From a virus (Duplodnaviria; Caudoviricetes), in the IMG/VR virus record IMGVR_UViG_3300025033_000033, positions 1 through 41,400 of that record: a stretch of DNA of 41,400 nucleotides; one strand, 5' to 3'. This document shows, one piece after another, positions 839-21,496 of this stretch. The notes beneath the pieces were generated by a model that did not search any database, was not told the DNA's origin, and saw only the letters and a list, made by a program, of their open reading frames with translations. The stretch's first letter is position 1. Every line of letters starts with the position of its first letter. A program made the translations under genes and the position numbers.

Positions 839-868
839 AAAAGACCTGCACAGTATGCAGGTCTTTTT
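839..868 (-). terminator. Intrinsic terminator after nrdJ (possibly bidirectional), overlapping a promoter
   Basis: AAAAGACCTGCA-cagta-TGCAGGTCTTTT perfect hairpin flanked by A/T runs; minus-strand TTGACA (880-875) with a 17-nt spacer to CATACT. Confidence 0.8.
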
Positions 869-886
869 TAATGGTGTCAATAGTTT

Positions 887-2068
887 TTATACTATTTCGC
901 AAACTCCACCAGAACAAGCTTGCGCACCTGTCGTATTAACATCAACGTACTTTGGCTTTATGTCTGCATTTTCCCAATCAATTGCCTTGAATGCTTTAGT
1001 GACATTCTCCCATTTATGAAGAAGATGCACATCCTTTAACAAGTAAGTTGTTTGGCGCTTATCTCCATCAAAATACTTATCTGCAAACTTATCGAACCTA
1101 CGAACCCAGTCGCGCTTCAAAGCATTTTTACTTGTGGCATGAGTTAGTTCAGCCTTCCCATCTGGGTTTGATCCATCCGCAACAGCACAAGCTCTCCACA
1201 GGTCAGCTTCATAAGCATTTAGCGCATCAACAATTAACCCTGATGCGAACATCGATGCAACTCCATATTCATCGATTATTTCTTGCTCAGTTTTTACCTC
1301 TGTAAATGGTGCTTGAGCATAATCCTTGTCTCCACTCGGAGGAAGGAAGCTAATGCCAGCAAAGCTCTCCTTGTTCTCCCAAACATATTCCTCAACCTCA
1401 TCCCAATCATCAACAGTAATTGTGTTTGAGATGTTGTGTCGCAACATTGGGTGATTGCCAAGCTCAGGTCTAGTTCCATGCTCAACCCAAGAGTTCTGTG
1501 CTTTTTTAACGTACTCTAAAAGCTTAACACCCATTAAATCCTTTTTAAACTTAGCGCCTTCTGGAGCTATGATTGGGAATGAAATTACAACATCTTTCCC
1601 GCTCGCAGACCATACAGAGTCTTCAACAGCATCTGGATTTATTCGCTTAAATTCCTTTGGTACATCCTCATTAACGTTCGCCTGCATATTTCTGAAGTAC
1701 CGCTTGCTATGGTGAGGGTGAATCCCTGAAGCAGTGCCAAGCAATACCGACGAGTTGCCAGCGGGTTTTGTGCAACTTATTCTCGCAGCCTTGTTGATGC
1801 CAATCAAGTCGGCAACCTCAGCGTTAATTTCTTTTGCGTACTCAGCCAAGCATTTCATGTTGTCGTCGTCGAAAAGAAAATCTGGATTCTCCATCCACCC
1901 AGTAATGCTTACGCCAAGCAATGCTTCTTTCTCAAATGCCTCCTTAGTTGCTTTGTCTCCATATTCAAAATCTGTGTAACCAGCTTGCAACGTCCCAATA
2001 ATTGTTGCAGCCTTCACAGCCCTCTTTGCATTTTCCATGTTATTCATTACGCCTCCATTACATTCGGT
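887..2068 (-). CDS. nrdJ: Class II (adenosylcobalamin-dependent, monomeric RTPR-type) ribonucleotide reductase, exon 3
   Basis: Frame extends upstream of ATG 2047 as TECNGGV, completing CNLTE after splicing; LLGVSITG, CTKPAGNSS, HNISNTI, GISFLP, YAQAPF and C-terminal CSGGVC. Confidence 0.9.
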   Translation of the reverse strand, partial: TECNGGVMNNMENAKRAVKAATIIGTLQAGYTDFEYGDKATKEAFEKEALLGVSITGWMENPDFLFDDDNMKCLAEYAKEINAEVADLIGINKAARISCTKPAGNSSVLLGTASGIHPHHSKRYFRNMQANVNEDVPKEFKRINPDAVEDSVWSASGKDVVISFPIIAPEGAKFKKDLMGVKLLEYVKKAQNSWVEHGTRPELGNHPMLRHNISNTITVDDWDEVEEYVWENKESFAGISFLPPSGDKDYAQAPFTEVKTEQEIIDEYGVASMFASGLIVDALNAYEADLWRACAVADGSNPDGKAELTHATSKNALKRDWVRRFDKFADKYFDGDKRQTTYLLKDVHLLHKWENVTKAFKAIDWENADIKPKYVDVNTTGAQACSGGVCEIV

Positions 2069-2813
2069 CAGTTATGTTGAAAGAGGGTCGTTAATCCTCT
2101 CCGGTTTCTTCATAGGTTTTTAGTATGTATTTTGCAAATAACAATAATTGCTCTGCACTTGCATTTGCCTTCATAGCATTTGCTATTTGGCTTATTACTT
2201 GGATATTATCTTGTGTATACCCTTTTGAGTTGTCAATTCTATCTAAAGAATACGAGCTATCATAAGCTCCTGGCCTTCCAGAATTAACCTTTAACTCAAT
2301 CCCTAATATAGGACATACTTTTGGCAAAAATATATCTTCAACCTCAAGAGTAGATTCCATTCCTTTTGCTCTTGCTCTCTGTTTCGCTCTTTGCCACATT
2401 CTTTTTTCAGGAGTCTGCGATTTGACTCTTTTTGAATTGCATGGTTTGCATATTTTCATTCTGCAACCAAACTTTCTCTTCTCAAAAATACAGCCGCACA
2501 TAGTACATTCTCTATGTGTCTCAGTCTCAAAATACCCATTCCTATTTTTTCTCATAAATCACCCTCATGTTGATCTATGAAGAAACTCCTGCATGTTTCC
2601 ATGCAGCTCAGACTATATCATCACCAATCGCTACTTGGTGGAGGGTGCTTCCTCTCACTTGAGAGTACGAAGTTCATCTACTCATAAAGAGTAGGTATCT
2701 TCTAGTCGTTGAACCTTCTAAAGGGTCGCCCCTAAAGCTTGGCTGCTGATTACCTTATGCTACGCACTTAGGCTTCCCAGCAATTCACCCTCTTTTACAA
2801 CCTCTACTCAATA
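2069..2813 (-). mobile_element. Group I intron 2 (IA2-like, 745 nt) carrying a homing endonuclease
   Basis: P1: exon UGUAACCUU pairs with GAGGUUGUA, U.G at the splice site; core GAAUUGCUGGGAAG, AAUCAGCAGCCAAG, GGUUCAACGACUAG, GAUAUAGUC; P7.1/P7.2-like insert; P9 CUGCAUG-GAAA-CAUGCAG; terminal G at 2069. Confidence 0.92.
2091..2555 (-). CDS. Intron-encoded His-Me finger (HNH-like) homing endonuclease
   Basis: CTMC/CKPC Zn motifs, CPILG, SLDRIDNSKGYTQDNIQVISQIANAMK; lies 3' of P7' and P9 inside intron 2; GAGGGTG Shine-Dalgarno. Confidence 0.85.
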   Translation of the reverse strand: MRKNRNGYFETETHRECTMCGCIFEKRKFGCRMKICKPCNSKRVKSQTPEKRMWQRAKQRARAKGMESTLEVEDIFLPKVCPILGIELKVNSGRPGAYDSSYSLDRIDNSKGYTQDNIQVISQIANAMKANASAEQLLLFAKYILKTYEETGED

Positions 2814-2878
2814 AAGGTTACATCCCTGAAATGCACTGACTCCAGAAGGAGATACAGGCATGAATGATATTTCTACGC
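2814..2878 (-). CDS. nrdJ: nrdJ exon 2 (65-nt micro-exon)
   Basis: GC GTA GAA ATA ... CAG GGA TGT AAC CTT; with the last T of exon 1 gives (NP)CVEISFMPVSPSGVSAFQGCNL. Confidence 0.92.
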
Positions 2879-3056
2879 CTCACACCGCAAGTATCAATGA
2901 CTTTCTTGCTGTGCGCTGGACTATCGCTCGCACCTATTAAGATGCCCCTCTCGCTTAGTCTCTCACGCTGGCTTTACCCTTGCGCCCTGTAAGTGTGTCA
3001 TCACCGTCCAAGTCAATCAGAGAAGGTTTTAAATCCGCACGTTATTTAATTGGCTA
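2879..3056 (-). ncRNA. Group I intron 1, ORF-less, 178 nt
   Basis: P1: exon AAUCCGU pairs with GCGGAUU (U.G); P3 CCUUCUC/GAGAGGGG; P7 GACUA/UAGUC; P8 GCAUCU-UAAU-AGGUGC; terminal G at 2879; removal restores NPCVEI. Confidence 0.9.
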
Positions 3057-4029
3057 ACGGATTGAACATAAATTCGGTGCTTTCGCTCCAAATAATTCCC
3101 GGCTCTCCAAACTGCTTTATTGATTTAAAAAGCTTTCCATAAGTTTCTCTCGCTGTCTCACTCCTTACCAGCATCACTGAATTATTTGATCTTGCTCTCT
3201 GAGGGTTTTTAACAAACCAGTCACCAGTTTTAGCTTCGATCATTTCTTCGTCATCTGGACTGCAAATTGAGATACTTGCGCTTCTTCGAATCCCGCCTGA
3301 AAGTACAGCATCAGATGTGTGCATTACAATGTCGTACACATGAATTGGACGCAATACATCTCCATCTTTTATTGCGCTTTCAATCACCGATTCGATTTTA
3401 TTTAGCGAAGCACGTAATCCGTCAGGGCCAGGAGCTTTAAACCCGCCAGAAATAAGTGATCCCTCTGGTCGAATCTCACTGAAATCAAAAAGAACATTAC
3501 ACCCAGAATACTCCTTGAAAGTACCGCCACCTTCAAAATAAGATGACATTAAAACACCAATTGCATCAGACCATCCTTCGATGGTATCGGGGACAACGAA
3601 GATTTTCGCCTCTCCTGATCGCTGCTTTATTTTCGGTAATTTTTTCACGTGATGCTTTTGTACGCTAAAACCAACGCCACCACCTTGCAATAACCACCAC
3701 ATCGTGTCTTGGAAAAACGATGGTCGATCAGCATAACTGGTAAGACAATTAAATTGCCTTCCATTTTTACGCAACATTGGTTCACCGCCAAATTGAAGAC
3801 TTCGCTGTGATGCCAAGCAAAACTTATCCTTGTAAGCGTGAGTTGCAAAATCAATCAAATCTGAAAGACGCTCACTTAAGCTTATTTTGCTTTTATACTT
3901 TTCCTTGTGCATATCCATGACACGATCAACAGCCTCATCCCAAGTCTCGTAGCGGCCTTCTTTGTCATTCCAAGCTGAATACCCTTTTATGAAGTTGTAC
4001 TTGCTCATTTCATTTGTATAGTCCATCAA
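3057..4029 (-). CDS. nrdJ: Class II ribonucleotide reductase, exon 1
   Basis: ETWDEAVDRV, QFNCLTSY, GGGVGFSV, VLSGGIRRSA, RARSNNSV, GEPGI; similarity stops at FNP, exactly where NPCxE is expected. Confidence 0.92.
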
Positions 4030-4271
4030 ATCCCCTTAAAAATTTCGTTTATCTCGTTAATATTAAACCCAATGACTCGCTTGGATTCACCGCCATCTTT
4101 CATAGCAATCGTTGTCGGCACACCCCTTACACCAAACTTACGTGCTGCTTCAGAGCCTTCATCAGTATCTATGTCGTAGACCTTACTAAAACTCATTCCA
4201 TTGTTGTTTGTGAATTCTTTTAATTGCTTGCATGGTGCGCACCAAGATGCGCTGAATAAGATTACTTCCAC
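4026..4271 (-). CDS. Thioredoxin
   Basis: FSASWCAPCK active site and GVRGVPT cis-Pro motif; GTG start with AAGGAG; 4-nt overlap with nrdJ. Confidence 0.9.
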   Translation of the reverse strand: MEVILFSASWCAPCKQLKEFTNNNGMSFSKVYDIDTDEGSEAARKFGVRGVPTTIAMKDGGESKRVIGFNINEINEIFKGI

Positions 4272-5940: not shown

Positions 5941-6522
5941 TTAGTGTACTGTCTGCTCTAGTTCTTCCTGTTCTTCAGCAAGAAGCGCTCTGTGCTCGAT
6001 GAGAACATCCAATCGCTCTTTTATTTCATCAGCGTTTAAGTAAACATCGCCAGCGGTTTTTACTTTCTCAATCTCGTCTAGTGTCAAGAACACACCATAA
6101 GTATCGTCGATAAATTTATTGATGTTGCTCATGACAGAGGTTACGTGTTTTGCCAAGTTTGATGGTGTTCCGCCAGATTGCAAAAATCCTTCATGGATCA
6201 TCATTGTCGCGTGATCGCTAATATAGAAATAATCACAGTTCAAAAAAATTGCAGAAGCAGCACTAGACGCATCGCCAATCAAAAAGCCGCCAATATTGCA
6301 TTGACACAAGCTCATTGCAGATAAGATGCTTTTCATTCCGTATGCGTCACCACCAGGTGAGTTTATATAAAGAATAATATTATCATCTTGTTTTGCAGAG
6401 ACCATGACCTCTACAAGCGCCCTATAATATTCTGGCGACTTGATCTCCTCATCAAGGTGAAATGAATATTCTGTTGCTGTACTCTCATTAGCTGTTGGCA
6501 GTAAAATATCTATATCTTCCAT
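5941..6522 (-). CDS. ClpP-like serine protease
   Basis: LYINSPGGD, ASSAAS (Ser), MMIHE (His), GDVYLNADE (Asp). Confidence 0.85.
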   Translation of the reverse strand: MEDIDILLPTANESTATEYSFHLDEEIKSPEYYRALVEVMVSAKQDDNIILYINSPGGDAYGMKSILSAMSLCQCNIGGFLIGDASSAASAIFLNCDYFYISDHATMMIHEGFLQSGGTPSNLAKHVTSVMSNINKFIDDTYGVFLTLDEIEKVKTAGDVYLNADEIKERLDVLIEHRALLAEEQEELEQTVH

Positions 6523-6535
6523 TATCCCTCCTAAT

Positions 6536-7630
6536 TTAAACCATTACTTGGCTGATTATGCAGGTAAATCCGTCTTCTTCAATAACCATTGGACTTACCT
6601 TGTTGTCGTAAATTTTGCATGTGATTGTATCAGACTTTATGTGCCTTAACCCATGTAACACAAAACTTGGATCATAGGCTAGCTTCATTGGCTCAGACCC
6701 TACATGAGTCATTGGAATTGCATCGCTAATCTCATTGGCATCACCGATAATAAATTTACCAACAACAACAGCCTCAACATCGCCAATATCCGCATTAATG
6801 ATACAGCGACTATTTCTTGGGTCGTCAGCGATAGAGCTAACACGTTTCAAACACTCTGTCATTTGCTCTTTACTGAAAGTTAGTTCATGCTTGATATTAA
6901 ATCTTCCACTTGGATTTGCAGCTCTAAAGTTTAAATACTTCATGTCAATCAGCGGCAAGAAAGTCTTAAAGTCAGTTCCAGAAATAATCACATGACTTCT
7001 ACTTAACTGCATTCTTGTGCATTCTGCAATATCCTTAGCAGCAACAGTAATTAGATTGATTGGAATAATAAACTCATCAAATAATCCTGAGCATGGCACT
7101 GATTTTATTGCGATGAAATGCTTATTTGTTGCAGCAACTTTTGCACTGTCTTCATCTCTCGAAACAACAACGCCATTTATCGCTTTGTTTATATCGTCCT
7201 TCGCACTAGCAAATGAAACCATGCTTATTGCCTCTGACAGCGCGACAAAATCAATATCTATATCAATGAACGAACCTGTATTGATTGTAGGTATCAGAGA
7301 TTGGTCAATAACCGGTGACTTTACGCGAGACTTTCCACAAACAATAACTGCCGATCCATTATCTGCTTTTATTGAGATGAATTTATCCTTTGGCAATGTC
7401 TTTAGTAAACTAATTAGCTTGTCAAAACGAACAGCTATCTCAAGAGGATCTCCAGTCGAGTTAATGGTTACTGATTTTTGTATTCTGCCATCAACTGCTG
7501 TAAGTATTGCTTCTCCATCATTCGATGAAATCAAAACGTGTTTGCTTGGCTCGTCTTTTGCTTTTGCCGCAACAACAGCAAGTCTATTCATTGCCTCAAG
7601 TAAGTCTTCTACCTTAAAATTAATCTTCAT
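6536..7630 (-). CDS. dnaN: DNA polymerase III beta-like sliding clamp
   Basis: 364 aa three-domain size; LTAVDG, VSFASAKDDINKAINGV, VAATNKHFIA, LIDMKYLNFRA and C-terminal IISQVMV parallel DnaN motifs. Confidence 0.8.
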   Translation of the reverse strand: MKINFKVEDLLEAMNRLAVVAAKAKDEPSKHVLISSNDGEAILTAVDGRIQKSVTINSTGDPLEIAVRFDKLISLLKTLPKDKFISIKADNGSAVIVCGKSRVKSPVIDQSLIPTINTGSFIDIDIDFVALSEAISMVSFASAKDDINKAINGVVVSRDEDSAKVAATNKHFIAIKSVPCSGLFDEFIIPINLITVAAKDIAECTRMQLSRSHVIISGTDFKTFLPLIDMKYLNFRAANPSGRFNIKHELTFSKEQMTECLKRVSSIADDPRNSRCIINADIGDVEAVVVGKFIIGDANEISDAIPMTHVGSEPMKLAYDPSFVLHGLRHIKSDTITCKIYDNKVSPMVIEEDGFTCIISQVMV

Positions 7631-9802: not shown

Positions 9803-10108
9803 TCACTCGCCATCCATCACATAAAAATCAGCCATCAATCCACGCAAGCTGTCGTTTCCTCGATCAAGTGAGGTAAACCGAATGCTGCCTCCGCTTGGGA
9901 ACTTCATAAGCATATCGCTAAGCACAACGCTGTCAAATAGATCCTGAAACATTCCCATGTAGGAGAACATTGCATTGCGAGCATCTTTCGCAAGATCCGT
10001 AACGTAAATAACGCTCTCTCCTGTGTACGCTGCGAAAATCAAACCACCTACTGGCATTTTCCTTGCCTTCGTAAAAGCACCGTACTTACCAGTTACCAAC
10101 TTTGTCAT
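9803..10108 (-). CDS. Hypothetical protein resembling part of a terminase/SF2 ATPase domain
   Basis: AAGGAG RBS and 4-nt overlap with the upstream gene; FPSGGSIRF.S.D...LRG...D..VMD pattern. Confidence 0.6.
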   Translation of the reverse strand: MTKLVTGKYGAFTKARKMPVGGLIFAAYTGESVIYVTDLAKDARNAMFSYMGMFQDLFDSVVLSDMLMKFPSGGSIRFTSLDRGNDSLRGLMADFYVMDGE

Positions 10109-10675: not shown

Positions 10676-10877
10676 GAATAAAAGGATCGATTTTTAAAAA
10701 AGGAGAAAAAAAGGAGAGTAAATCCTCCTTAAATAAAACACCGTTCGAGACGGCATAGTAGAAGGGTATATAGTAATATATATATAATTAATTAATTAAA
10801 ATAATATATATAATAGTTACTACTAACTATCCAACCACCCCCAGTAGTATTACTCCCTATTTTTAATCCTTTTATTC
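10676..10877. other. Candidate replication origin / divergent control region
   Basis: Non-coding; 12-bp inverted repeat GAATAAAAGGAT (10676-10687) / ATCCTTTTATTC (10866-10877) around an almost pure A/T core (about 10767-10815). Confidence 0.5.
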
Positions 10878-16813: not shown

Positions 16814-18001
16814 ATGGGTAGTGATATGACTGAGCTGGAAGAAAAAGCAACAAATAAGGCAATAAATAATAAATACAACTATTGGCATGGTATGCCTAGA
16901 TTTGTTCAAAACAAAAAAACTGAATACAAAAAGATAATATGCCTTATTGGATTGCAAAAGATATTTCTCAGATTTGATAATGAAGATGATTATAGTGTGT
17001 TTATTGATAGGTGTATGACGTTTGGTGTTGCTCTAGGGAAATTTGTTGTTTTTGAAAGTCTTGATTATGCAGAAGTGGTTCTTGATCAGAAGCTGACATC
17101 AAAAACAAAGTCTATATGGTATCCATTTAGGTCTCACTGGGGTGGCATAACCGAAAAAAAATATTACAGTAATCATCCTGGGCCTAGATTCCCTGTTTAT
17201 ATAGTATCAAAAGGCAGAGCTAGCAATTGACTTACAACAAAGGCATTGGACTTAATGGGCGTCAGCCATTACATTGTTTGCGAGGAGCATGAAGCTAATG
17301 AGTACGAAGAAAAAACAAATGCTAAAATTTTGGTTCTACCAAAAAAATACCTTGATAAGTACGACACTTGCGATAATATTGGTGACACCAAGAGTAAAGG
17401 CCCAGGCGCCGCTAGAAATTTTTGCATAGATCACTTAAAAGCAAATGGATTTTCAAAGCATTGGGTTATGGATGATAACTTAGACGCTTTTCACTACCTA
17501 ACTGATAATGAAAAGCTAGAGGTTAGAACTGGTGCGACATTGGCAGCGACAGAGGATTTTGTTGATCGTTACACAAACGTACCAGTTGCAGGTCTTAACT
17601 ATTATTCATTTTGCAAAAATGGAGATGCGGTTCCTCCAGTTGTATTTAATACTCGAATATACTCCTGCCTGTTAATTGATAACGATTCAGGATACAGATG
17701 GAGAGGGCGGTACAATGAGGACACTGATCTCTCGTTGCGAGTGTTAAAAGATGGTAAATGCACTATACAAATGAACGCATTTCTCTGTGGAAAGGTCACA
17801 ACTCAGCGTATGCGTGGAGGCAACAGCAAAGAGTTTTATGACATTGAGGGAACTAAACCTAAGTCGCAAATGATAGCAGATTTACACCCAGATGTTGCCA
17901 AAGTTGTTTGGCGATTTAATCGTTGGCACCACCATGTAAACTACAGGCAGTTCAAGGAAAACGCATTAAAGATTGTTGACTATGGGTTGTTTTTGAAATA
18001 A
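16814..18001 (+). pseudogene. Putative GREB1/TAGT-like DNA-modification glycosyltransferase fusion with one in-frame TGA (17228-17230); pseudogene or readthrough
   Basis: ORFs 16802-17230 and 17246-18001 share a frame: PVYIVSKGRASN*LTTKALDLMGV; GAARNF, WVMDDN, YSCLLI, RWRGRYNEDTDLSLR. Confidence 0.65.
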
Positions 18002-19187: not shown

Positions 19188-20837
19188 ATGGCTTTAATAC
19201 CAAGACCATATCAGCTTGGCGCAATTAATGCAGTGATTGACTATTTGTTTGAAACAGATGGTCATCCTTGCATTCAGGCACCTACGGCATCCGGCAAGAG
19301 CTTAATGCAAGCTGAGATAGCTCGTAGGGTGTATGACATAGCACCTGACAAGCAGCAGGTGTTCTTAACAGATGTAACAGCGCTTATCGGCCAGAATAGA
19401 GAAGAACTTCTTGAGCAATGGCCTGACGCGAGAACTACAACATACAGCGCATCTTATGGGCAGAAAAATCATACTGGTGAGCTTGTGTTTTGCGGTATTC
19501 AATCTGTTTACAAGAACGCATCACTATTCAACGACGTGTCTGTTGTTTACATTGACGAAGTTCACAGAGCATCGTTAAAAGTTGGTGGCATGTACCATCA
19601 GTTCTTTACTGAGCTTTGGAAGAAAAACCCTCATGCTAGAATTGTTAGTCTGTCAGCAACTCCTTGGAAGTTGGAATCTGGAACCATTGAAGGTACTTGG
19701 ATCTGTACTGAAATAGTCTATAGCATTCCAATGAGCGAACTCTTTAATGATGGATTTCTATGCCCAATCATAACTCCAAAAACAAGCCTGACTCTCGATT
19801 TTAGTAAGATAAAAAAAGCAAAATCCGGTGAATTTGATGAAGAAGAAATGGCTAGACTCATGGATGACGATAATGTCACCAATGCAGCGCTGGATGATGC
19901 TATGCGATATGCAAGCAACAGAAAGTCAGGATTGATCTTCGCGTGCAACGTTGCCCATGCTGAGCACATTAAGAAAGCATTAGAAGATCGAGGTGAATTT
20001 GCTGAGGTTATCATTGGTGAGACTATCACTGAAGACCGCAAGCGAATCGTTGATGATTTCAAGAACTTCAAACTGAGATGGATTATATCTGTCGGCACAC
20101 TAACAACAGGATTTAATGCAAAGAATGCAGACTTGCTAATCGTGTTGAGAGCAACGCAGTCTAGCAGCCTGTGGCTTCAGATACTTGGTAGAGTGCTCAG
20201 AACACATGAGTCAAAGATAAACGCATTGATTCTTGATTTTGGTTCAAACGTTGAGAGATTTGGTCGAATAGATATGATTGGACCTCCACCAACTAAAGAA
20301 GCTAAGAAGCAAGCAAAGAAAACTCCGTTCAAGCAATGCCAAGGCATCTTATCAAATGGTTGGCAGTGCAATAACATCGTTCCATATCTTGATAAGAGCT
20401 GCCCTAAATGCGGATATGAATTTGGAGGAGATACAACACCGAATCATGGCACTGAGGCGAGCAAAGGCGACCTAACAACCATTAACCAGATTGTTAAGGC
20501 ATTTGATGTTAATAATGTGTCTTGGGCTAAGCACGTAGACGCAAAGGGAAATGACTCGCTAAAGGTAAGCTATCGGTATGGAATTGGCATCAATTCAATT
20601 GAAGATTATTTGTATTTTAGTGGGGAGCCTTGGCAGCGTATTGAGGCGTGTAGATGGTGGGAAGACAGGGTTTCTGGTGACATAGCACACCAATGCCCAA
20701 AGCATATAGAAACGGCTGTCGCAGAGTTAAATCACTACGGCTTAAAGCCATTCTCAAAGATACATGTTGATGTCACTAATGCAAAAGTGACACCATCAGG
20801 TAACTACATTGGTCACAAGATAATTGGTTACGAGTGA
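19188..20837 (+). CDS. Superfamily 2 helicase (RadD/YejH/UvsW-like) with Zn finger
   Basis: PRPYQ, APTASGKS, DEVH, SATP, LTTGFN, QILGRVLR, CPKCGYEF. Confidence 0.92.
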   Translation: MALIPRPYQLGAINAVIDYLFETDGHPCIQAPTASGKSLMQAEIARRVYDIAPDKQQVFLTDVTALIGQNREELLEQWPDARTTTYSASYGQKNHTGELVFCGIQSVYKNASLFNDVSVVYIDEVHRASLKVGGMYHQFFTELWKKNPHARIVSLSATPWKLESGTIEGTWICTEIVYSIPMSELFNDGFLCPIITPKTSLTLDFSKIKKAKSGEFDEEEMARLMDDDNVTNAALDDAMRYASNRKSGLIFACNVAHAEHIKKALEDRGEFAEVIIGETITEDRKRIVDDFKNFKLRWIISVGTLTTGFNAKNADLLIVLRATQSSSLWLQILGRVLRTHESKINALILDFGSNVERFGRIDMIGPPPTKEAKKQAKKTPFKQCQGILSNGWQCNNIVPYLDKSCPKCGYEFGGDTTPNHGTEASKGDLTTINQIVKAFDVNNVSWAKHVDAKGNDSLKVSYRYGIGINSIEDYLYFSGEPWQRIEACRWWEDRVSGDIAHQCPKHIETAVAELNHYGLKPFSKIHVDVTNAKVTPSGNYIGHKIIGYE

Positions 20838-21496
20838 CTTTCTTCAACCTTCTTCATAGACATAATTTCTCCGTTCAAGCGTGATGCGTCTATTTCGATT
20901 CGCTCAATGTCTTGCTCGGAGAAGTTAAAGTGCTTATCGCAGGATTCAATCATCAAACACCCATAGAGCGCGTTTGAATAGTCGAACAACGGTATTGCAT
21001 AGAGCGACTTAACTTTTGCGTATATCAGGTTTTGGTACAGGCCGTAGTCAGTATCTTTTATGTCTGACACATCAGGGAGGGAATAGACTTCATTCTTTAC
21101 TAGCTGTCTAAGTATTCTTGAGTAGAATGACGCTGGAACACCGTTAATTGCAGAGCTGACTGAGTGTACGTTTGGCTTTAACTGCTCATTCCTAATATGA
21201 ACTTTCATGCTAGGTATATTTGCAACATTTACTTCACCGTTTCTTAGTTCAAAGACTATAGCTCGATCAGCGTTGTATTTTTGACGAATCCGATCAAGAT
21301 CGTCCATGACAATGCTGTCATGCTCAATGAACTTATTGTAATCTTGGTGCTTGAATTTAGGCTTCTGGTTGTTCTCGATTGATTTTAATTTTCGCCACAT
21401 AGCAAAAAAAGCTGCAATACCAAGCATTACAGCTACTCCAGCGTAATTTCCAGACGCCACCAATCCACCAAGAATGTTGATAAATGTTGTTTCCAT
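20828..21496 (-). CDS. Membrane protein with GAF-like domain; candidate holin or lysis regulator
   Basis: N-terminal hydrophobic helix; ADRAIVFE, VKSLYAIPLFD, YGCLMIE GAF-like strands; last gene of the lysis cassette. Confidence 0.6.
   Translation of the reverse strand: METTFINILGGLVASGNYAGVAVMLGIAAFFAMWRKLKSIENNQKPKFKHQDYNKFIEHDSIVMDDLDRIRQKYNADRAIVFELRNGEVNVANIPSMKVHIRNEQLKPNVHSVSSAINGVPASFYSRILRQLVKNEVYSLPDVSDIKDTDYGLYQNLIYAKVKSLYAIPLFDYSNALYGCLMIESCDKHFNFSEQDIERIEIDASRLNGEIMSMKKVEESHS

What the first reader, a model, noticed from the sequence alone, without database searches (positions are those of the whole stretch)
887..4029. nrdJ is split by two group I introns around a 65-nt micro-exon carrying the active site
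Seen: exon 1 ends AAT CCG T (3057). A 65-nt segment (2878-2814) absent from the ORF track reads GC GTA GAA ATA...GGA TGT AAC CTT, and exon 3 starts ACC GAA (2068). Joined, these give an uninterrupted 2220-nt (739-aa) frame reading FNPCVEISFMPVSPSGVSAFQGCNLTECN. Both introns follow a U paired to G in P1 and end in G. Established: NPCxE holds the thiyl-radical Cys and catalytic Glu, and CNL holds a redox Cys, in class II RNRs. Multi-intron RNR genes are known in phage Twort nrdE (class I). Inference: the radical Cys codon itself (T|GC) is split, so activity needs two accurate splicing events, and skipping the micro-exon would frameshift the gene. Automated annotation would call two fragments.
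Basis: partly seen in the sequence, partly recalled or inferred. Interest (0 to 1): 0.85.

Follow-up and report, generated by a model that had tools for sequence, protein, structure and literature searches.

The report
Two introns flank reductase's catalytic loop
A phage gene for a predicted vitamin-B12-dependent ribonucleotide reductase is cut by two unrelated introns, likely self-splicing, that leave most of the catalytic loop on a 65-base exon; the layout is real and recurs in other phages, and the first intron belongs to a very small type that the standard RNA database model misses.

Summary
Confirmed. Joining 4026-3057, 2878-2814 and 2068-887 gives one open frame of 738 aa (739 from the TTG). 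It aligns with 109 uninterrupted homologues, and N322, C324, E326 and C343 are invariant in all of them. Intron 2 (745 nt) is a standard Rfam group I hit with P7.1/P7.2 and a PacI-like nuclease ORF; relatives sit at the same site, 6 nt upstream, or free beside intact nrdJ. Intron 1 (178 nt) has no Rfam hit. Yet 17 aligned homologues at the same Cys codon keep P1, P3-P10 (99% of cells paired, 18 of 42 pairs compensatory), and one lies in cultured Roseobacter phage CRP-118. Two other phage contigs isolate the same loop with different intron pairs (35 and 41 nt exons), and inteins use the same codon. So the layout is best read as two selfish elements hitting neighbouring conserved codons, not as a switch. 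Skipping is predicted to be disfavoured. Splicing was not shown in RNA; one contig gives a 13-base hint of the exon 2/3 junction. Multi-intron RNR genes and micro-exons are published for class I. This scan noted nrdJ micro-exons and the compact intron family before, on other DNA.

The parts
3057..4026 (-). nrdJ exon 1 (ATG 4026; alternative TTG 4029); holds C94, the monomeric class II insertion domain, N322, P323 and the first base of the C324 codon
   Evidence: PF21995 29.2 bits, cut-off 27
2879..3056 (-). Intron 1, 178 nt, ORF-less compact group I intron in the thiyl-Cys codon. Guide 3038-3032; P10 arm 3042-3039; P3 3026-3020/2952-2946; P4 3012-3009/2989-2986; P6 2984-2982/2968-2966; P7 2962-2956/2923-2918; P8 2945-2930; one long P9 about 2915-2881; terminal G 2879
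   Evidence: structure and covariation; no Rfam hit; homologue in CRP-118
2814..2878 (-). nrdJ exon 2, 65 nt; completes C324, encodes E326 and C343-N-L; its first 3-4 nt form P10 of intron 1 and its last 7 nt form P1 of intron 2
2069..2813 (-). Intron 2, 745 nt, IA2-like group I intron. Guide 2804-2798; P3 2792-2786/2647-2641; P7 2708-2703/2615-2610; P7.1 2694-2678; P7.2 2665-2652; P9 2606-2589; P9.2 2100-2082; terminal G 2069
   Evidence: Rfam RF00028 92.5 bits, E 1.2e-22; elements
2091..2555 (-). 154-aa ORF in the P9 region of intron 2; predicted beta-beta-alpha-metal (HNH-type) nuclease, likely a homing endonuclease
   Evidence: phrog_3322 endonuclease E 2.8e-34; model pLDDT 89; best folds PacI, Foldseek E 2.6e-4 and Z 7.3 / rmsd 2.5 / 82 aligned
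2552..2580 (-). Predicted hairpin that covers the start codon of the intron ORF, with the Shine-Dalgarno-like GAGG in its loop region
   Evidence: fold, coordinates; a repressing role is inferred by analogy with T4 intron nucleases (recalled)
887..2068 (-). nrdJ exon 3, ending in the C730/C735 pair
   Evidence: (both Cys invariant in 109 of 109)
4026..4271 (-). Thioredoxin/glutaredoxin-like gene whose stop overlaps the nrdJ ATG; likely reductant partner
   Evidence: PF00085 E 1e-12; partner role inferred
839..867 (-). 12-bp hairpin just after the nrdJ stop, terminator-like
   Evidence: not listed by the terminator scan

Best explanation
The gene is a phage monomeric class II-type ribonucleotide reductase interrupted by two unrelated group I introns that likely each splice themselves out of the mRNA, restoring one 738-aa frame, and they are inferred to have arrived independently at two neighbouring, highly conserved codons. 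Shown by sequence: the boundaries, the restored frame, and the core helices of both introns. Inferred from the group I mechanism: each intron uses its own guide (P1), takes up a free guanosine in P7 and ligates at its terminal G, in either order; only the doubly spliced RNA makes enzyme, because either unspliced intron stops translation (residue 326 or 346). Intron 2 is likely mobile through its own nuclease. Intron 1 has lost or never had an ORF, although relatives carry ORFs in the P8 loop. The micro-exon is a by-product of two targets lying 65 nt apart, and skipping is predicted to be rare because the two guides and cores differ.
For: Restored frame colinear with 109 homologues. Only PDB hit of a full-length homologue is L. 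leichmannii RTPR (profile E 4.6e-36). Intron 2: Rfam 92.5 bits. Intron 1: in 17 aligned members at the same codon, 99.3% of 714 cells pair and 18 of 42 pairs change on both sides (P3 6 of 7, P5 3 of 3, P8 4 of 4, P10 2 of 3, P1 1 of 7, P7 1 of 6), against 35-46% pairing when slid. P10 and P1 covary with the EXON letters, which argues for selection on splicing. In 93 distinct family members from many genes P3 pairs 95.7% against 66% for shuffled partners. Independence: intron 1 occurs without a second break in 43 of 45 resolved RNR loci, and intron-2-type cassettes occur without intron 1. Other combinations isolate the same loop: L084 (35 nt), L229 (41 nt), and L225 (intein plus intron). Inteins or intein-like inserts follow N-P-C in 6 of 9 long homologues (2 of them scanned, both PF14890). 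Cross pairing of exon 1 with guide 2 is 4 of 7, -1.3 kcal/mol, against 7 of 7, -5.7 for the cognate pair. One contig (run X23) keeps intron 1 and continues from 2814 into 13 bases that match only 2056-2068.
Against: No spliced RNA was seen. The X23 hint is one contig at depth 3.7 with 13 bases beyond the joint, below the tool's 31-base rule for bridging, and the run type is only guessed as DNA. P5 and P8 columns were picked from the same alignment before counting, so leans toward the structure; the first count gave 93.5% and 13 of 38. Intron 1 folds no better than shuffles (z -0.46), lacks P2 and an obvious P9.0, and has an A.G mismatch at the base of P4 (90 of 93), so it may need protein help. 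P10 of intron 2 is weak. Full-length homologues score 159-178 bits against TIGR02505, below its cut-off of 340. Skipping between introns of different subgroups is reported for Coxiella 23S rRNA (PMC10136302, passages).
Confidence: 0.88

Rival explanations
1. Intron 1 is a real intron but too reduced to splice alone; it needs a host or phage protein, or the neighbouring intron 2 core.
For: 178 nt against 205 nt for the compact Azoarcus model intron (PMC13168695, passages); no P2, A.G at the base of P4; no folding advantage over shuffles. Some Bastillevirinae introns spliced in vivo but not in vitro (PMC11878797, passages).
Against: All catalytic-core helices, including the P7 G-C pair with a bulged A, are present and conserved. 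It stands without a second break before the redox Cys in 43 of 45 resolved loci, which excludes a need for an adjacent intron 2 but not for a protein.
Confidence: 0.3
2. The pair is a selected control device: two splicing steps, or regulated skipping of the catalytic exon, gate dNTP synthesis on the GTP level or translation state of the host.
For: Skipping or either unspliced intron gives a dead, truncated protein. The layout recurs in L084 and L229. An 'on-switch' idea is discussed for phage introns, and skipping is shown for SIOphi (PMC11878797, passages).
Against: The recurrences use different intron families and three different downstream sites, as independent invasion predicts. Only 2 of 45 resolved intron-1 loci have the second break. 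109 close homologues have no insert. Cross pairing of the guides is poor.
Confidence: 0.08
3. No splicing: the two annotated ORFs are translated separately and assemble, as in the fragmented Aeh1 NrdA.
For: Exon 3 has an in-frame ATG at 2047 after a GGAGG. The Aeh1 precedent exists (PMC3045599, passages).
Against: Neither fragment contains C324, E326 or C343; exon 1 ends N-P-L-A-N-stop. Both inserts have group I cores.
Confidence: 0.02
4. Pseudogene or assembly artefact.
For: Uncultured phage; the record is estimated 51% complete.
Against: The same 3025 bases are identical in another metagenome contig, and contigs of several runs lie on it with 0-1 differences; these may share the window's source. 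All invariant residues are intact, and the inserts recur at the same sites in cultured phages.
Confidence: 0.02

Closest known systems
Bacillus phage phiNIT1 nrdE (class Ib), small exon between two group I introns, confirmed by nanopore cDNA (PMC11878797, passages)
   Same: RNR large-subunit gene, two introns, an exon of about 66 nt that annotation misses.
   Different: Class Ib. Its small exon lies upstream of the catalytic loop, which is intact in its third exon. Here the exon is the catalytic loop of a class II-type enzyme.
Staphylococcus phage Twort nrdE (two introns) and orf142 (three introns, 23-nt exon, skipping)
   Same: Several group I introns in one phage gene, one with an HNH nuclease (PMC3653736 and PMC10136302, passages).
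   Different: The Twort nrdE introns are about 1 kb apart and break the Pfam profile near positions 74 and 380. The skipping orf142 introns are near-identical IA2 copies; here the two introns are unrelated. The two primary Twort papers were not read.
Phage IA2 introns with a nuclease ORF in the P9 region (T4 nrdD type, recalled); unannotated relative in Rhizobium phage RHph_N3_13 nrdJ
   Same: P7.1 and P7.2, ORF 3' of P9. RHph_N3_13 has a 61% identical ORF in an Rfam-positive intron in nrdJ.
   Different: RHph_N3_13 inserts 6 nt further upstream (after the Cys codon) and its ORF is labelled a sigma-factor decoy. The ORF fold is PacI-like.
Azoarcus pre-tRNA-Ile group I intron (205 nt; PMC13168695, passages)
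   Same: Compact group I core with few peripheral domains.
   Different: Intron 1 is 178 nt (ORF-less relatives 167-223 nt), has no P2, a 6-nt J3/4 and a 6-nt J8/7, and sits in a protein gene. No direct sequence comparison was made.
Lactobacillus leichmannii RTPR (PDB 1L1L)
   Same: Best and almost only solved relative; its N-P-C-G-E...C-N-L loop is visible; insertion domain and C-terminal Cys pair present.
   Different: Distant: homologues fall below the TIGR02505 cut-off. Residue roles (thiyl Cys, Glu, redox Cys) are recalled knowledge.

Membership tests
Group I intron (intron 1) | P1 with U.G at the 5' splice site | tested here: met
   7 of 7 pairs; U.G in 17 of 17, one position compensatory in 3
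Group I intron (intron 1) | Terminal G and P10 | tested here: met
   G at 2879; P10 98% paired, 2 of 3 pairs compensatory
Group I intron (intron 1) | P3/P7 pseudoknot with guanosine-binding G-C pair and bulge; P8 | tested here: met
   P3 6 of 7 compensatory, P7 100% paired with 1 compensatory pair, P8 4 of 4; P7 end pair A-U 65 / G-C 8 of 73
Group I intron (intron 1) | P4-P5-P6 domain | tested here: met
   4-bp P4 with U-A/C-G change in 77/16 of 93, preceded by A.G in 90 of 93; P5 3 of 3 compensatory; P6 invariant. Atypical, not canonical.
Rfam RF00028 (intron 1) | Score at or above 50 bits | tested here: not met
   No hit at E<=10 in the window; 0 of 17 family introns at the gathering score; 0 of 5 at E<=5. 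The Rfam seed lacks ID and IE (PMC11878797, passages).
Named subgroups IA-IE (intron 1) | Best score to a subgroup covariance model | not testable with these tools
   GISSD subgroup models are not held; ID is not excluded
Group I intron (both) | Guanosine-dependent self-splicing | not testable with these tools
   No raw RNA reads; needs an assay
Group I intron (intron 2) | RF00028 core, P1 U.G, terminal G, P9.0 | tested here: met
   92.5 bits; P1 7 of 7 and a 2-bp P9.0; terminal G at the same site in 9 of 9 loci shown, the window's own included
Subgroup IA2 (intron 2) | P7.1 and P7.2 between P7 and P3 (definition recalled; PMC3984707 names them as class features) | tested here: met
   Two hairpins 2694-2678 and 2665-2652; no subgroup model run
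Homing endonuclease (intron 2 ORF) | Nuclease fold with intact active site | tested here: inconclusive
   beta-beta-alpha-metal folds top the searches (PacI Z 7.3, under the tool's caution line of 8); D105, Y113, N117, N126 invariant in 59 sequences; roles recalled from PacI
Homing endonuclease (intron 2 ORF) | Cuts the intronless allele near the insertion site | not testable with these tools
   Indirect only: 27 of 27 distinct close relatives lie in or just after an RNR gene
Monomeric class II RNR (RTPR, NrdJm) | Insertion domain, N-P-C-x-E and C-N-L loop, C-terminal Cys pair | tested here: met
   PF21995 above cut-off
TIGR02505 RTPR equivalog | Score at or above 340 bits | tested here: not met
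   Full-length homologues P0001 and P0003 score 178 and 159; best family but below cut-off. The joined protein itself was not scanned.
Class II RNR | No beta subunit; adenosylcobalamin dependence | tested here: inconclusive
   No beta-subunit family among 26 proteins scanned (114 ORFs listed); record 51% complete; cofactor untested

The most novel reading that the evidence does not exclude
Intron 1 stands for an unclassified subgroup of group I ribozymes (no P2, 4-bp P4 on an A.G pair, 6-nt J3/4 and J8/7, single P9) that self-splices without protein at 167-180 nt, below the Azoarcus model. It has colonised the thiyl-radical Cys codon across several phage RNR clades, where a second intron family and inteins compete for the same codon. 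Such RNR genes are systematically mis-annotated, and the family offers a natural minimal ribozyme testable in a cultured phage (CRP-118).
Probability: 0.35. Interest if true: 0.65.

Novelty: new variant of a known kind. Interest (0 to 1): 0.42.

Why it matters
It is a clear case of selfish elements crowding an enzyme's catalytic loop: two sites 65 nt apart, with at least two intron families and inteins at the first and three adjacent positions at the second. Gene callers lose the catalytic residues, so phage RNR surveys would miss or misclassify such genes. The compact intron family is invisible to Rfam and is a candidate small ribozyme. A natural pair of unlike introns around a frame-critical exon tests the rule, drawn from engineered pairs, that distinct splice-site helices prevent skipping.

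Tried and rejected
RNA evidence: of 24 runs listed, 1 was RNA. Its 4 short contigs bridge no junction; one crosses 2814 by only 4 bases. Seven distinct runs were laid and no joint row was reported; runs X11, X15 and X16, chosen because their word shares might fit intron loss, showed only patchy cover. Lack of cover of intron 2 in X23 is not counted as evidence. Whether X23 is DNA or RNA could not be told (17 of 30 bins covered). No intronless near-identical allele was found: best full-length homologue 69% over exon 1; one metagenome match, identical to the window. Rfam FTHFS and other weak hits over the region are chance level. The promoter scan is at shuffle level, 10 against 8.9. Subgroup assignment through bacterial genomes failed: 12 of 88 pattern matches carried the core motifs, none tied to a described intron. 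My model R1 found no further family member in the window or in 32 intron-2-type loci. Literature: ten searches listed no paper describing group I introns around the catalytic loop of a phage nrdJ, or this compact family. The library lacks most subscription papers, two primary papers (Twort nrdE 2002; cyanobacterial RNR intron 2007) were not held, and no supplements were read. The RNRdb entries (over 100 curated RNR introns, PMC2795772 passage), the Bastillevirinae tables and the 42,459-intron database may bear on novelty.
Full report
Setting. The window is a 41.4-kb virus record, estimated 51% complete, with tail, primase, helicase, thymidylate synthase, PhoH and clamp genes. 22 of the 24 runs listed for the gene are labelled aquifer metagenomes of one year and may be one campaign. 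The reductase lies on the minus strand just after a thioredoxin-like gene.

Observation. Joining the three stated segments gives an open frame of 739 aa from the TTG or 738 aa from the ATG at 4026. Of 120 listed homologues, 109 were 700-800 aa and were aligned; 11 were left out, 9 of them over 900 aa. All 109 share N322, P323, C324, E326, C343, N344, L345 and E347, and 79 of 109 align without a gap across both junctions. The closest solved relative is the monomeric B12-dependent RTPR of L. leichmannii. Exon 1 carries the matching insertion domain, though full-length homologues stay below the TIGR02505 cut-off. The roles of these residues are recalled knowledge. Unspliced RNA stops at residue 326, RNA with only intron 1 removed at 346, and skipped RNA at 326 in another frame.

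Intron 2. Rfam RF00028 scores 92.5 bits. It has two hairpins between P7 and P3, as in IA2 (definition recalled), then P9, an ORF, P9.2 and a 2-bp P9.0 before the terminal G. P10 is weak. The ORF matches PHROG endonuclease families, folds confidently (pLDDT 89) and is nearest to PacI and other beta-beta-alpha-metal nucleases (Z 7.3 is below the tool's caution line). Its start codon sits in a predicted hairpin. A scan gave 64 viral loci with relatives. I classed the 32 best non-self loci plus Rhizobium phage RHph_N3_13 (33 loci, 27 distinct), by script and for three loci by eye. Nine lie in an intron at the same site, 11 in an intron 6 nt upstream, 1 inside the redox-Cys codon, and 6 stand free just after an intact RNR gene. 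14 of 20 loci scanned have an Rfam hit beside the ORF. The other 31 loci are more distant and mostly not intronic. This fits a nuclease adapted to this stretch of RNR and captured by introns, a route described in PMC3984707 (passages); cutting is untested.

Intron 1. Rfam finds nothing. BLAST found a 74% match in Roseobacter phage CRP-118, inserted after the same base of the same codon in an nrdJ annotated as two genes. A core-motif scan gave 121 viral loci, about 180 estimated. With a P1-based scan (74 loci) this made 53 distinct candidates after N-P-T, including the window itself and one probable false positive. 45 had a 3' end resolved by pattern (at least one wrongly); 28 are 167-223 nt and 17 are 379-876 nt, with ORFs or remnants in the P8 loop of those examined. 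The flanks include several RNR motif types. I aligned 17 short members with a resolved 3' end. A first structure gave 93.5% pairing; with P5 and P8 re-registered from the same alignment, 99.3% and 18 of 42 pairs compensatory, against 35-46% for slid controls. P1 and P10 track changes in the exons. Across 93 distinct members from many genes (121 loci less 19 duplicates and 9 without the motif), P3 pairs at 95.7% against 66% shuffled, P4 has four pairs on an A.G mismatch, and J3/4 and J8/7 are 6 nt as I assigned them. None of 17 members reaches the Rfam score. The Rfam seed lacks ID and IE introns (PMC11878797, passages), so the family may be a known subgroup that I could not test. The RNA folds no better than shuffles.

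Recurrence. The first site also holds a different intron type in Pseudaeromonas phage KLEP7 and in L229, there with a LAGLIDADG ORF. Intein-like inserts follow N-P-C in 6 of 9 long homologues. The catalytic loop is cut out as a micro-exon in L084 (35 nt) and L229 (41 nt) by other intron pairs, and L225 pairs an intein with the second-site intron. Only 2 of 45 resolved intron-1 loci have the second break. Independent arrival at two conserved targets explains this without a control function.

Skipping. Exon 1 pairs with guide 2 at 4 of 7 positions (-1.3 kcal/mol) against 7 of 7 (-5.7) for exon 2, and the two cores are unlike. In engineered tandem introns, distinct splice-site helices suppressed skipping; skipping is still reported for Twort orf142 and for unlike introns in Coxiella rRNA (PMC10136302, passages). 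Low skipping is therefore a prediction.

Reads. No raw RNA was available. One contig of run X23 lies on 2814-3021 without differences and carries 13 further bases that match the window only at 2056-2068, the start of exon 3. It is either an allele without intron 2 or a half-spliced RNA. It is one low-depth contig and shorter than the tool's bridging rule, so it is a hint only.

Comparison. Introns in phage RNR genes are common; a 2013 survey lists split nrdJ in two phages without introns named for them (PMC3653736, passages). phiNIT1 nrdE has a cDNA-confirmed small exon (PMC11878797, passages); by my mapping it is about 66 nt and upstream of the catalytic loop. The same paper gives 173 nt as the smallest size among the introns it modelled, so 178 nt is not unprecedented. 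Papers seen: passages of PMC3653736, PMC11878797, PMC2248736, PMC7595605, PMC11835236, PMC2795772, PMC3984707, PMC10580990, PMC8323127, PMC10136302, PMC4853749, PMC3045599; abstract and passages of PMC13168695; parts 1-2 of 4 of PMC6125680; part 1 of 2 of bioRxiv 2020.01.27.920355; no supplements. Ten searches found no description of this nrdJ layout or of the compact family, within a library that lacks most subscription papers. Earlier notes of this scan describe a three-intron nrdJ with a 10-nt exon and a 168-nt intron of a compact family missed by Rfam; they are unchecked leads.

Verdict. Real and correctly read. It works like known multi-intron phage RNR genes and is a new variant of that kind: a class II-type enzyme, the catalytic loop as the micro-exon, and an unclassified compact intron in the thiyl-Cys codon. 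Interest 0.42.

Noticed in passing
L084 1426-1863 and L229 650-2270: Two other phage nrdJ genes with the catalytic loop on a 35-nt and a 41-nt exon between different intron pairs.
   Followed up: partly
L005 (Roseobacter phage CRP-118) 2492-2663; L007 (KLEP7) about 1160-1380; L223 (RHph_N3_13) 1887-2569: Unannotated group I introns in nrdJ of three cultured phages, each annotated as two RNR genes; the RHph_N3_13 intron ORF is labelled a sigma-factor decoy.
   Followed up: partly
L144 532-715, L182 516-704, L143: Members of the compact intron family in Omnitrophota genomes, in flanks that look like tRNA 5' ends rather than anticodon loops (by eye; ARAGORN calls no tRNA).
   Followed up: no
L161 100-280 and 529-705: Two tandem members of the compact family on a contig binned as Methanobacterium; may be viral or mis-binned.
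   Followed up: no
L033/L046 near 1400-1640; L225 near 1470-1510: An intein end (H-N-C) followed within a few codons by a group I intron in RNR genes.
   Followed up: no
L226, L232, L239, L240, L241, L253 near 1801: Free-standing copies of the intron-2 nuclease directly after intact RNR genes; Streptomyces phages such as NootNoot show the same order.
   Followed up: partly
L077 857-1079 and L243 2634-2861: A further intron site in nrdJ near the T-x-V-K-P motif (about residue 445).
   Followed up: no
window 17246-18001: TET-associated glycosyltransferase (PF20691, E 8.5e-45), suggesting modified DNA bases in this phage.
   Followed up: no
window 10676-10877: AT-rich palindromic stretch inside a 12-bp inverted repeat between divergent gene blocks; possible origin or promoter region.
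   Followed up: no
window 20828-21496, 6536-7630, 5941-6522: GAF-domain protein, DNA polymerase III beta clamp and ClpP-like gene.
   Followed up: no
window 3009 and 10084: One contig of X11 differs at 3009 (P4 of intron 1); an X23 contig has a 14-base loose end at 10084 that matches nothing else in the window.
   Followed up: partly
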